Below, one piece after another: positions 46,272 through 48,706 of a stretch of 64,000 bases of DNA. A program made the position numbers and the translations under genes. The stretch spans positions 12,526,001-12,590,000 of the forward strand of contig NW_024704742.1 in assembly GCF_018977255.1 (NCBI RefSeq), in the 5' to 3' direction. Below the pieces are notes generated by a model. The model saw only the letters and a program-made list of their open reading frames with translations. It was not told where the DNA came from and did no database searches. The number at the start of each line of letters is the position of its first letter. The stretch's first letter is position 1. This stretch comes from Callorhinchus milii. Lineage: Eukaryota.

Positions 46272-48706
46272 ATGGGAGGACCACCACATCTTGTACTCCT
46301 GGGTCTTTATGAACACATTTTGATCAGTGGGGTCCAACTAGAACCAATTCCCCTACCAATGGGACGGTTTGACTGCAGCATGTCCCAGGTGACGGGGCCA
46401 CCAGCTTTAAGAATCGGGACTGGATGTTACGGAAAACTATGGGTACGATTCAGCTATCCCCGGGTAACCTGAATGGTCCAGTGCGGTAAAAGGAAAAGAT
46501 GGAGGGACTCCCCACATGCCGGCTGTTCCAGATAAAACCCGCAGGGGGAGCCAAGACCAACTCTTCATGGGTCAAGCTTGCATCGGGCAGCTCAGACGTA
46601 CCAGGGGTCTACTGACCGGCGTTTGTGTTATGGAATAACCCCTTGACCGACCTCAGGATCCTAGCCCAGAATGGACTCTGCCTGTGGAACCAGAATGGGA
46701 CAGAATTCAACACGACAGTGGATGTTGTGGACCGGTGTCTCCCAAGCAATGGGATGCAGGCACAGGACATTAGTATACAGTACACTAATGTAATAAGCCA
46801 GCGTATGTCTGTATGGTCAGGATACTCATTTATTTTGAAATGTACATTACACTTAGACGTAGTGTGGTCCTACAATGGGAGTAGGTATGTGGGCAAATGG
46901 AATGGATATCTATAACCGTCCCAGTAAGAAATTTTGAGGTTTGTAAGACAGGGAAGGGATCCCGGGAAATACCTGGTACTTTCGCCCAGGACAGGTGGGG
47001 ATACCCTATGTAGAAACCACACAGGGAAAGAACTCTAAATGGCTGCTGCATTTCCCCTATGTCTATGCTGGGGATGAAGGCTCATACAAGTGCGGGATAG
47101 ATGTGGGCTCAGCTTATTCAATCCTGGTGGAGGATGCAGTGGGCAAGTACCATACCTTCCGCTTGGAGGTGGAAAGTGAGCCCGAGCCATTGAGAAAGAG
47201 GTCATGTGGGGATTTAACTTTTACCCCAGGCTTGGTAAATGGCTTGGTGCCTCAGGTCACGCAACAGCAGGTATACATGGGGGGGGGGGGCAGTACAAAA
47301 CATATCCAATAATCTTGGATATTTCCGGGCTTGGTCTTCCCATAGGATTGTGTGATAAACACTATTGGGATTGGAACGGACATGTGATGCAACAGTACCT
47401 GGCCCAATTCCATTGGGATACCACTAATGCCCAACCCCTCAAACCACCAATGTGAGCAAAAAATCACTCACGGACTGAGCAGCCGGGAGTGCAGCAGAGC
47501 GAGCAGCACTAAACTGTTTGGATATAGAAAATCAGTACTACAAGTCCCAAAGGTTACAGGAAGCACTAAAAAATCGGCTGTTTAAATTGAATGAACAGGA
47601 CAAAGATGACATTCATGAGCTGGGAGAGGGAGTTCTGTACTTCGATGATGTTGTCTAATCCTTGGCAACCACCCAGGACAAGGTGAACGAGATCCTGGCA
47701 AACCAGGATGACCAGCCGGCTAACTCCTCCTGAGCAACCACCTGCTCCTTGTACCTAGCCTACCTACAACAAATGGTCCAATCCACCTTCCTCTCATTAC
47801 CATAGAATCAGCTACCTACTTGGTTCACTGATGCTTAGCTAGAAGAACTAGTGCCCAGAGAAACCAATTTCTGCTTAGTACGACAGTTCACCCAGGTTAA
47901 GCCCCGAGAATGTCTGGGTTCCCCCTCACTAGATAACATTGGTTTGGTGCTTCAGTTGCCATGGTTCAGGTCACTGTGGCCTTCCCCATTATTTGAAGTT
48001 GCATCAAAGGTGTCGTGCGCCAGGGCCACTGAGTCCAGTATGCCCAATAGCCTCTGTACCTGAATGCAATCCATTGGAAGGGGTTGTGACTGACCAACTG
48101 GGGAGATACTTGGATGTGCCCACTGGAAGAGGTTCCTATCTCCTGTGGGTTTACCTTGTCCTCTTCATCCCCTGAATGTGGGATGACTATAATATCACAC
48201 TGGTCTGGAACCTTGGTATCCTATAAAGGGTGGGGGAATACTGCTACACCTCATCAGAAGCCACCTTCCAGGTAGGGCTAAAAGGATGCCCTCTCCCATA
48301 CACCTCTGCATGTTTCTTCCCTACCATTCCAGTAAAATTGGGGACCCATTATCTCGAACACAAAATCATCCACAATATGATCAGGATTCAGTTACACTCA
48401 AACCTCCATTGAGAGGCATTGGAAGCAATTGCCCAATTTGGTCATCCCATAATGTCCCTGAGCGTGAACCAAATTTTACAGCCCAATATTACCTCACAAA
48501 AGCATCTGCTCCATATCCATGAACAGAATCAAATGACCAATGACTCAATTAGGCATTTAGGAGACCATCACTGGTGGCAGGTGGTATACAATGCAGGACA
48601 ACATCCCTTTGCTCGCTTGGCATCATATACCTCCCTGGTAGTTCAAGTAGCAGTGACGATAATGTTAATCTGGTCCATCCGATGGGTTCATAAGTATGGC
48701 TCGTAA
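46272..48706 (+). pseudogene. env: env-like glycoprotein gene remnant with Ig-like motif and F-type fusion module
   Basis: Lies between integrase and 3' LTR; hydrophobic N-terminus; N-glycosylation sequons (NGT, NTT, NGS, NIT, NDS); GDEGSYKC; mutated (R)AK(R) site followed by SLTD*AAGSAA..AALNCLDIE and a helical region; Cys-rich segment; HHWW plus TM LASYTSLVVQVAVTIMLIWSI. Confidence 0.75.

What the first reader, a model, noticed from the sequence alone, without database searches (positions are those of the whole stretch)
46272..47200. Immunoglobulin-like domain fused ahead of the fusion module in an ERV env
Seen: joining frameshifted pieces gives ...NFEVCKTGK/PGNTWYFRPG...WLLHFPYVYAGDEGSYKCGI...YHTFRLEV, followed by EPLRKRS. 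An earlier FILKCTLHLDVVWSYNG segment shows similar Cys/Trp spacing. Established: a B-strand Cys, a C-strand Trp and D-x-G-x-Y-x-C are the signature of V/I-set Ig domains, and canonical retroviral Env SU does not carry that motif. Inference: this env had an N-terminal Ig-superfamily module, possibly captured from the host and released at the basic LRKR site. It could have served as an attachment module or immune decoy in front of an F-type fusion protein. This is the best candidate for an undescribed system in the window.
Basis: partly seen in the sequence, partly recalled or inferred. Interest (0 to 1): 0.8.

Follow-up and report, generated by a model that had tools for sequence, protein, structure and literature searches.

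The report
Ig-like motif in dead retrovirus env
A decayed endogenous retrovirus carries, in the outer half of its envelope gene, a conserved stretch that looks like part of an immunoglobulin domain and probably bound the receptor, but the fold could not be confirmed.

Summary
They lie inside a badly broken env (46272-48706) that follows an integrase remnant. The stretch is real coding sequence. Eight loci of this genome carry it. Window versus its closest relative gives dN/dS 0.17 here, like the fusion subunit (0.20).

A family-wide signature (W-x-L-x-F/I-P-Y ... G-x-Y-x-C) resembles Ig strands E-F. Profiles of the family searched against PDB sequences return almost only Ig-superfamily domains (19 of 19; best E 0.0023). 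Two independent sub-profiles repeat this more weakly.

Several tests did not support an Ig domain. Pfam Ig models do not match. Two AlphaFold runs failed (pLDDT 40 and 37).

The LRKR site is not conserved. The conserved cleavage site lies about 90 residues downstream, before a fusion peptide. So the module is internal to the surface subunit and is not a released N-terminal piece. No host donor gene was found.

No sequence link to paramyxovirus F, lokiretrovirus or foamy virus Env was detected. A relative's integrase is closest to foamy virus integrase.

Verdict: a probable Ig-like receptor-binding module in an orphan env, of moderate interest and unproven.

The parts
44359..46127 (+). pol remnant (RNase H-like and integrase), broken into several frames; RT and gag not seen upstream
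   Evidence: rve E=0.0041 on 45497-45748; RT_RNaseH_2 E=0.064 on 44359-44931. Last pol frame ends at 46127. No LTR pair found in 30000-56000.
46272..48706 (+). env remnant, about 810 codons, read through at least 6 frame changes and 9 in-frame stops
   Evidence: Frame changes near 46470-46490, 46890-46905, about 46955, 47275-47290, 47440-47460 and 48020-48050. In-frame stops at 46613 and at 5 + 3 places in 47461-48703. Terminal stop at 48704-48706.
46490..46888 (+).
   Evidence: C-x-W-N-Q aligns in window, L002, L007, L008, L010. The Cys of FILKC is C in L002 and L008 and Y in L007. The Trp is conserved in all 4.
46903..47171 (+). Ig-like module candidate (about 90 residues, two frames): putative strands B (46930-46950), C (Trp 46974), E (47037-47060), F (G-S-Y-K-C 47079-47093), G (47148-47171)
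   Evidence: PDB profile hits are almost all Ig-superfamily, on the E-F strands. The IL1RL2 alignment spans the C-strand Trp to the F-strand Cys without large gaps. hhalign vs Ig repeats scores 38.8 against shuffled mean 9.3. dN/dS 0.17. Fold not confirmed.
47190..47201 (+).
   Evidence: L002 has LRKG; L007, L015 and L037 have no basic cluster there.
47238..47455 (+). conserved pre-cleavage segment (N-G-L-V-P-Q ... Y-x-T-Y-P-I-x-L-D-x-S ... helix-like Q-Q-Y-L-x-Q-F-H); by position the counterpart of an F2-type segment (inference)
   Evidence: Alignments (window, L002, L007, L008, L015, L037). A run of ten G at 47272-47281 lies inside it.
47458..47530 (+). subunit boundary and fusion-peptide-like segment (S-K-K | S-L-T-D-x-A-A-G-S-A-A ...)
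   Evidence: Relatives read W-A-K-R|SLTDWV (L002), R-H-M-R|SLMDWV (L008) and R-G-K-R|SLTGWV (L037), followed by the conserved G-L-N-x-L-D-I-E-N-Q-Y.
47530..48616 (+). large fusion-subunit ectodomain (about 380 residues including the fusion peptide) with a heptad-like region after the fusion peptide and another before the anchor
   Evidence: No match to PF00523, PF03408 or any solved fusion protein.
48617..48679 (+). membrane anchor (21 hydrophobic residues) followed by an 8-residue tail
   Evidence: end of P0008. Conserved in L002, L016, L018/L022, L021, L026.

Best explanation
The flagged stretch is the middle of the surface (pre-cleavage) subunit of the env of an old, low-copy, foamy-like endogenous retrovirus family.

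The env has the layout of a class I fusion glycoprotein with an unusually large fusion subunit. It runs: N-terminal glycosylated region of about 400 residues; R-x-K/R-R-type cleavage site; fusion peptide; heptad region; about 380-residue ectodomain; membrane anchor; 8-residue tail.

Inside the N-terminal region sits a beta-rich module that was kept by purifying selection while the viruses were alive. Its C-terminal 90-100 residues carry the C, E and F strand signature of immunoglobulin-superfamily domains.

Most likely (inferred, not shown) it folds as an Ig-like beta-sandwich and served as the receptor-binding part. In that it would be analogous to the IgV-like RBD at the N-terminus of gamma-type Envs.

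It stays covalently part of the surface subunit. A conserved roughly 75-residue segment and the true cleavage site follow it. It was not recently taken from the host, and every copy in this genome is dead.
For: Anatomy:
- Frames and pieces were read.
- The integrase sits directly upstream in the window, L002, L007 and L008.
- In L008 one frame (1501-2454, two stops) runs from the module through the cleavage site, fusion peptide and heptad region. Module and fusion part therefore belong to one gene.

Family:
- 8 loci carry the module (window, L002, L007, L008, L010, L012, L015, L037). Two more carry only the fusion part.

Selection:
- dN/dS window vs L002 is 0.17 in the module (108 codons; wrong frames 0.93 and 2.03).
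- It is 0.20 in the fusion subunit (384 codons).

Ig signal:
- A profile of all lineages vs 177,635 PDB sequences gives 19 of 19 hits in Ig-domain proteins. The best is Dpr11 Ig1, E 0.0023.
- A profile without the window lineage gives Dpr11 on top (E 0.029), with 9 of 16 hits Ig, all on the same positions.
- A profile of window + L002 only gives Dpr11 on top (E 0.068), with 4 of 6 hits Ig.
- hhalign vs Ig repeats of P0002 scores 38.8 (88%). This compares with 9.3 +/- 3.0 (max 22.7) for 30 column shuffles, 9.2 reversed, and 10.8 and 9.9 for two bacterial repeat proteins.
- phmmer of the window piece against 1.84 billion proteins returned 6 proteins, 2 of them multi-Ig proteins aligned on E-F.

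Lineage and precedent:
- Foamy-like: both halves of the integrase of relative L036 match PFV integrase best (E 1.3e-11 and 2e-11; Ty3 7e-9; HIV about 1e-3).
- An Ig-like N-terminal RBD is already known in retroviral Env.
Against: - No Pfam Ig family matches any single piece at E up to 1-5.
- Both AlphaFold models are unusable: pLDDT 40.0 and 36.7, from alignments only 11-13 fragmentary rows deep.
- The ESM Atlas gave nothing.
- The similarity covers only about 25-50 residues (strands C to F at most). Every individual E-value but one is above 0.01.
- P0002 and P0003, used for hhalign, were themselves picked as hits of the window piece, so that test is partly circular.
- The canonical B-F disulfide is not conserved. 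The F-strand Cys may instead pair with a Cys about 10 residues downstream that is present in L002, L007, L008 and L010.
- The PDB is rich in Ig domains, which raises their share among weak hits.
- Receptor binding is pure inference.
- The window's own 83-residue integrase piece does not discriminate between retroviral genera.
Confidence: 0.5

Rival explanations
1. The module is a beta-rich, virus-specific part of the surface subunit with no Ig fold. The W-x-L ... G-x-Y-x-C stretch is a chance or convergent look-alike of the Ig E-F hairpin (a tyrosine-corner-like motif).
For: - No Pfam Ig hit.
- AlphaFold gives no sandwich.
- Similarity is limited to 24-50 columns.
- The B-strand Cys and the Asp of D-x-G are not conserved.
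- D-x-G-x-Y-x-C alone is expected 0.37 times per window.
- An extra conserved Cys about 10 residues after the F-like Cys suggests a different disulfide.
Against: - Three profiles built from different lineages all put the same Ig domain (Dpr11 Ig1) first and place Ig hits on the same positions.
- The combined profile reaches E 0.0023.
- The spacing from the C-strand Trp to the F-strand Cys (41 residues) equals that of a solved IL-1-receptor-family Ig domain in an almost gap-free alignment.
- Shuffled and reversed profiles score far lower.
Confidence: 0.3
2. One reading: a host Ig-superfamily domain was captured at the N-terminus of env and is released as a separate piece (attachment module or decoy) by cleavage at LRKR.
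For: - The Ig-like signature.
- The window copy alone shows the most canonical Ig residues (B Cys, C Trp, D-x-G-x-Y-x-C) and a tribasic site after the putative G strand.
Against: - LRKR is absent from the other lineages.
- A conserved segment of about 75 residues and the conserved cleavage site with its fusion peptide follow the module.
- About 200 residues of conserved env precede the module, so it is not N-terminal.
- No host gene in this genome matches at E up to 0.01-0.1; only ERV loci do.
- No closer Ig relative was found among 1.84 billion proteins.
Confidence: 0.05
3. The stretch is not env at all: a host exon or meaningless open frames lying next to a retroviral pol.
For: No database protein resembles it.
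Against: - It follows integrase in four or more independent loci and precedes the same fusion subunit.
- dN/dS 0.17, with wrong-frame controls near or above 1.
Confidence: 0.02

Closest known systems
N-terminal receptor-binding domain (RBD-C) of gamma-type retroviral Envs (MLV, FeLV, HERV-Pb1)
   Same: An independently folding, modified IgV-like domain in the surface subunit, upstream of the fusion machinery, that binds the receptor (bioRxiv 10.1101/2024.03.17.585361, passages). This is what the module here most likely works like.
   Different: - No sequence similarity was tested or found.
- The env here lacks the gamma-type hallmarks C-x-x-C and C-x6-C-C.
- Its fusion-subunit ectodomain is about 380 residues. 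This is much larger than I recall for gamma-type TM.
- The module is preceded by about 200 further residues.
- It keeps an Ig-superfamily sequence signature, which that preprint says RBD-C lacks.
Foamy virus Env and fish/shark foamy-like ERV env
   Same: - The integrase of a family member is closest to PFV integrase.
- It has a large fusion subunit with a C-terminal anchor and furin-type cleavage.
- Fish foamy-like ERV env genes are reported to have no detectable homology to any known Env (PMC5210030, passages; PMC10699275, passages). That matches the blank searches here.
- FV Env has an F-like core whose domain II has an Ig-superfamily fold (PMC11468914, passages).
   Different: - No match to PF03408.
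- No W-x-x-W leader motif.
- In FV the RBD (residues 217-543) is inserted after the HRC helix, just before the furin site. Here the module lies before the conserved pre-cleavage segment.
- FV domain II is mostly in the C-terminal part of TM, not in SU.
Lokiretrovirus Env / paramyxo- and pneumovirus F (PF00523)
   Same: The layout is shared: cleavage R-x-K-R, fusion peptide, coiled coil, large ectodomain, C-terminal anchor (PMC7947760, passages).
   Different: - No PF00523 match (one search was uninformative because its control rang nowhere).
- The published loki consensus Envs shown in the supplement have the cleavage site at about residue 115-120. That is a short F2 with no extra module (read only, not used in any tool). 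Here about 400 residues precede the cleavage.
- In the one supplement row seen for cartilaginous fishes (Orectolobiformes), 0 of 3 genomes screened held lokiretroviruses.
Immunoglobulin-superfamily I-set / V-set domains (Dpr, DIP, IgLON, titin, IL-1 receptor family)
   Same: The E-F strand signature W-x-L-x-hydrophobic ... G-x-Y-x-C and the C-strand Trp spacing match. These are the only solved proteins the family profile finds.
   Different: - Below Pfam thresholds.
- B-strand Cys not conserved.
- Asp of D-x-G mostly His.
- Fold unconfirmed.

Membership tests
Immunoglobulin superfamily domain (Pfam V-set, I-set, ig, Ig_2, Ig_3) | Match to a Pfam Ig model above its gathering score | tested here: not met
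   No Ig family was listed at E up to 1 (window pieces) or up to 5 (L007, L008, L002 pieces).
Immunoglobulin superfamily domain (Pfam V-set, I-set, ig, Ig_2, Ig_3) | Conserved Cys in strand B paired with Cys in strand F | tested here: not met
   The F-like Cys is present in 8 of 8 loci. The B-like Cys (EVCKTGK) is present in the window only.
Immunoglobulin superfamily domain (Pfam V-set, I-set, ig, Ig_2, Ig_3) | Trp in strand C at I-set spacing from the F Cys | tested here: inconclusive
   W in window, L008 and L010; R in L002; Y in L007. The spacing of 41 residues equals that in the aligned IL1RL2 domain.
Immunoglobulin superfamily domain (Pfam V-set, I-set, ig, Ig_2, Ig_3) | E-F signature L-x-I-x-x-V ... 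D-x-G-x-Y-x-C (tyrosine corner) | tested here: met
   W-x-L is present in 8 of 8 loci and G-x-Y-x-C in 6 of 8. Asp is found only in the window. PDB profile hits fall on these positions.
Immunoglobulin superfamily domain (Pfam V-set, I-set, ig, Ig_2, Ig_3) | Two-sheet beta-sandwich fold | tested here: inconclusive
   AlphaFold2 mean pLDDT was 40.0 (227 aa) and 36.7 (133 aa). No fold search was run because the models are meaningless.
Paramyxo/pneumovirus F and lokiretrovirus Env (PF00523) | Sequence match to PF00523 | tested here: not met
   P0007 and P0008 give no hit at E up to 10. The own-genome scan gives none, but its control rang in 0 of 14 genomes, so it is uninformative.
Paramyxo/pneumovirus F and lokiretrovirus Env (PF00523) | Short N-terminal subunit (about 100 residues) before the R-x-K-R site | tested here: not met
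   About 400 codons lie between 46272 and 47463. Loki consensus Envs are cleaved at about residue 115-120.
Paramyxo/pneumovirus F and lokiretrovirus Env (PF00523) | Basic cleavage site, then fusion peptide, heptad region, large ectodomain, C-terminal anchor | tested here: met
   Read directly from the sequence and conserved across loci. A furin-type R-x-x-R is seen in L008 and L037, a dibasic K-R in L002, and a decayed site in the window.
Paramyxo/pneumovirus F and lokiretrovirus Env (PF00523) | Three-domain F fold (DI, DII, DIII) | not testable with these tools
PDB profile searches of the fusion part give no F or FV Env.
Foamy virus Env (PF03408) | Sequence match to PF03408; leader peptide with W-x-x-W | tested here: not met
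   No Pfam hit. No W-x-x-W in the window env pieces.
Spuma-like (class III) ERV, by pol | Integrase closest to foamy virus integrase | tested here: met
   For relative L036, PFV IN scores E 1.3e-11 and 2e-11, the next non-foamy match is Ty3 at 7e-9, and HIV is near 1e-3. The window's own piece is not discriminating. No phylogeny was done.
Gamma-type retroviral Env | C-x-x-C in SU and C-x6-C-C in TM | tested here: not met
   Neither motif occurs in any in-frame env piece of the window.

The most novel reading that the evidence does not exclude
An ancient foamy-like retrovirus lineage of fishes built its receptor-binding subunit around a true immunoglobulin-superfamily domain, taken long ago from a vertebrate host. 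The domain still shows the superfamily's sequence signature. It was placed upstream of a large F/foamy-type fusion machine, at an insertion point different from that of the foamy virus RBD. This would be a third, independent way of adding a receptor binder to that fusion core. It would also be the first retroviral RBD whose host Ig origin is visible in sequence.
Probability: 0.15. Interest if true: 0.7.

Novelty: new variant of a known kind. Interest (0 to 1): 0.35.

Why it matters
The env genes of fish and shark foamy-like ERVs are reported as orphans without recognisable domains (PMC5210030, PMC10699275; passages). A first domain assignment would give a handle on how these old retroviruses bound cells.

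Whether the Ig-like RBDs of retroviruses came from host Ig genes is stated as unknown in the one preprint I read on this. A module that still carries the Ig sequence signature would make that question testable.

As it stands, the evidence is a weak but repeatable sequence signal in dead copies, so the practical weight is modest.

Tried and rejected
- **Pfam on single pieces:** no Ig, F or foamy Env hits.
- **AlphaFold2:** run twice (whole 227-aa natural frame of L007 with alignment A2; 133-aa core with A7). pLDDT was 40.0 and 36.7, so no fold search was run.
- **ESM Atlas:** whole frame and core gave nothing usable.
- **Word-index protein searches** for longer relatives with the L007 frame, the L008 fusion frame and the fusion alignment A3: none. 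The tool says this is weak evidence.
- **Exhaustive phmmer with the window piece:** no env relative.
- **The search for related loci with A2** in viral and metagenome contigs: error, alignment not conserved enough.
- **Own-genome search by alignment:** I used single proteins instead and found no new loci.
- **PF00523 in the own genome:** none, and the control was silent too.
- **PDB sequence searches** with the fusion part and the pre-cleavage part: only chance-level hits.
- **LTR search in 30000-56000:** no pair found.
- **Earlier findings of this scan:** nothing.
- **Sequencing runs:** only one organism label holds the stretch and no RNA holder is listed. One run guessed to be RNA has a single 177-base contig at 48054-48230. 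This says nothing on expression.
- **Literature:** the J Virol 2023 paper on cartilaginous-fish endogenous foamy viruses (PMC9972966) is not held. bioRxiv supplements are closed. Either could describe this env.
- **Rejected readings:** host exon, and two complete tandem Ig domains. Only about 25 residues lie between the first C-W pair and the second putative B strand.
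Full report
**What is there.** The window lies in a 991-Mb animal genome. Between 44359 and 46127 are broken RNase H-like and integrase frames (rve E 0.0041). From an ATG at 46272 to a stop at 48704-48706 runs a decayed env of about 810 codons. It can be followed only by changing frame at least six times and reading through nine stop codons.
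- ..FILKCTLHLDVVWSYNG.. (46829-46879)
- ..ISITVPVRNFEVCKTGKG (to 46959)
- PGNTWYFRPG...KWLLHFPYVYAGDEGSYKCGI...YHTFRLEVESEPEPLRKRS (46959-47204)

No LTR pair, RT or gag was found around it, so the provirus is truncated.

**Is it more than chance?** D-x-G-x-Y-x-C by itself is not. It occurs once in the six frames of the window, against 0.37 expected from shuffles. The longer E-F pattern is expected 0.03-0.07 times. The decisive point is that the stretch is a conserved, once-selected protein.
- Own-genome searches found the module in 8 loci: window, L002, L007, L008, L010, its near-identical neighbour L012, L015 and L037. The fusion part alone occurs in two more.
- The lineages are only 26-36% identical to L007 in this region. 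They share C-x-W-N-Q, a C...W pair, Q-V-G-I-P-Y, W-x-L-x-F/I-P-Y, G-x-Y-x-C and N-G-L-V-P-Q.
- Between the window and L002 (73% nucleotide identity), dN/dS is 0.17 over 108 codons of the module. The same DNA read in the two wrong frames gives 0.93 and 2.03.
- The fusion subunit gives 0.20 over 384 codons. The two copies therefore diverged as working viruses, and the module was as constrained as the fusion machinery.

**Where the module sits.** About 200 residues of env precede it, with four N-x-S/T sequons. After its putative G strand comes a conserved segment of about 75 residues: N-G-L-V-P-Q ... Y-x-T-Y-P-I-x-L-D-x-S ... a helix-like Q-Y-L-x-Q-F-H. Then comes a conserved basic site directly before S-L-T/M-D/G-W-V-x-G-G-x-A ... 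G-L-N-x-L-D-I-E-N-Q-Y. That site reads W-A-K-R in L002, R-H-M-R in L008, R-G-K-R in L037, and a decayed S-K-K in the window at 47455-47463. This is the subunit boundary and fusion peptide. In L008 a single frame (two stops) links the module to the fusion peptide and heptad region.

Release of the module there is not supported. After the fusion peptide come about 380 residues of ectodomain, a 21-residue anchor (48617-48679) and an 8-residue tail.

**Is it an Ig domain? Evidence for.**
- An HMM of all lineages (A2), searched against all PDB chain sequences, listed 19 sequences at E up to 10. All 19 are proteins made of Ig domains (Dpr, DIP, FcRL4 fusion, shark IgNAR V, MALT1, titin, RIG-5, ZIG-8, contactins; that these are Ig proteins is my knowledge of the names). 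All are aligned on the W-x-L ... G-x-Y-x-C positions. Dpr11 Ig1 scores E 0.0023, and the rest 0.12-1.7.
- A profile without the window/L002 lineage (A5) again put Dpr11 first (E 0.029). In that search 9 of 16 hits were Ig proteins on the same positions. The other 7 (whirlin and a related PDZ entry, an ATPase subunit, a glycosyltransferase, a ribosomal protein) were on other positions.
- A profile of window plus L002 only (A6) put Dpr11 first (E 0.068), with 4 of 6 hits Ig proteins. An IL-1-receptor-like 2 alignment runs from the T-W-Y of strand C to the Y-x-C of strand F with one gap.
- hhalign of the core alignment A7 against the 11 Ig repeats of P0002 scored 38.8 (88%) and against those of P0003 24.1 (17%). 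Column-shuffled queries gave 9.3 +/- 3.0 (max 22.7) and 9.4 +/- 2.4 (max 15.3). Reversed queries gave 9.2 and 8.5, and two bacterial repeat proteins 10.8 and 9.9. P0002 and P0003 were found with the window piece, so this test is partly circular.

**Is it an Ig domain? Evidence against.**
- No Pfam Ig model matches any piece.
- A second Cys about 10 residues after the F-like Cys (L002, L007, L008, L010) hints at a different disulfide.
- The confident similarity spans only 24-50 columns.
- AlphaFold2 with the shallow alignments failed twice (pLDDT 40.0 and 36.7). I therefore ran no fold search.

I put the Ig-like fold at roughly 55-60%.

**Captured from the host?** Searches of the genome with four different pieces of the module returned only ERV loci. 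phmmer against 1.84 billion proteins gave 6 repeat proteins whose E-values are sums over 4-8 weak repeats. No close Ig relative appeared (P0005 was not examined). The module predates the split of lineages that are now about 30% identical. A recent capture is excluded. An ancient one can be neither shown nor excluded.

**What kind of env and virus?**
- The fusion part matches nothing. No PF00523, PF03408 or other Pfam family was found, and no solved fusion protein, with single sequences or profiles. No relative was found in the protein collection.
- It lacks C-x-x-C, C-x6-C-C and W-x-x-W, so it is not gamma-type and shows no foamy leader motif.
- 'F-type' is therefore an inference from layout and size only.
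- Both halves of the integrase of relative L036 match prototype foamy virus integrase best (E 1.3e-11 and 2e-11; Ty3 7e-9; HIV near 1e-3). The window's own short piece does not discriminate. I read the family as foamy-like (class III-like), without a phylogeny.
- This fits the literature. The env genes of fish foamy-like ERVs have 'no detectable sequence homology' to known Envs (PMC5210030, passages). No Env domains were detected in shark and jawless-fish spuma-like ERVs (PMC10699275, passages).
- Foamy virus Env has an F-like core whose domain II is of the Ig superfamily. Its RBD is inserted after the HRC helix (PMC11468914, passages).
- Lokiretrovirus Env matches PF00523 (PMC7947760, passages). 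In the consensus proteins shown in that paper's supplement the cleavage site lies near residue 115-120, so there is no extra N-terminal module (read by eye only).
- In the env here the extra 300 or so residues lie before the conserved pre-cleavage segment. This differs from both.

**Novelty.**
- An Ig-like N-terminal RBD is known in gamma-type Envs.
- F-like fusion cores are known in foamy viruses and lokiretroviruses.
- An Ig-signature module in an orphan, foamy-like fish env was not mentioned in what I could search. 'Immunoglobulin' occurs 0 times in PMC7947760, PMC5210030, PMC10699275, PMC13709493 and PMC13524379. Two full-text searches gave nothing on it.
- The J Virol 2023 paper on cartilaginous-fish foamy ERVs is not held and bioRxiv supplements are closed, so the claim of no prior description is limited.
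- I file the finding as a new variant of a known kind, with moderate interest and an unproven fold.

**State of the copies.** All loci are dead. L015 and L037 have deletions joining integrase to mid-env. L010 and L012 carry stops. Contigs of two other runs of the same organism label carry the window's sequence, with a 9-base insertion after 46730. In one run the G-run near 47278 has a different length.

Noticed in passing
window 37787-39634 and 40875-42278: Two long low-complexity arrays (periods 8-14 nt; the + strand translates as runs of S-L or E-R) lie just upstream of the provirus remnant, and N's are read at about 41600-41630. They may mark the place where the 5' part of the provirus was lost.
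   Followed up: no
window 46730 and 47272-47281: Contigs of other runs of the same organism label carry 9 extra bases after 46730 (2 of 2 runs covering it). One of them has a G-run of different length near 47278. The homopolymer length in the assembly is therefore uncertain or polymorphic.
   Followed up: partly
L010 and L012 (G000:C20:11776179-11776454 and 11769513-11769788): Two copies of the module, 99% identical at the protein level, lie about 6.7 kb apart on the same strand. This looks like a segmental duplication of a dead copy rather than two insertions.
   Followed up: no
L015 (G000:C30, about 51.1-51.6 kb) and L037:8267-8890: In two loci the integrase frame runs by deletion straight into the middle of env, from the E-strand-like W-x-L onward. 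These are independent internal deletions with similar end points.
   Followed up: partly
window 30000-30068 and 35340-35408: A 69-nt direct repeat (93% identical) looks like the tRNA-related head of a SINE. That resemblance is recalled, not tested.
   Followed up: no
window 51510-52103 (- strand): A 197-codon open frame has motifs that look like a non-LTR retrotransposon reverse transcriptase. The resemblance is recalled, not tested.
   Followed up: no
window 48054-48230: A single 177-base contig of a run guessed to be RNA lies on the fusion-subunit part. This is too little to speak of expression.
   Followed up: no
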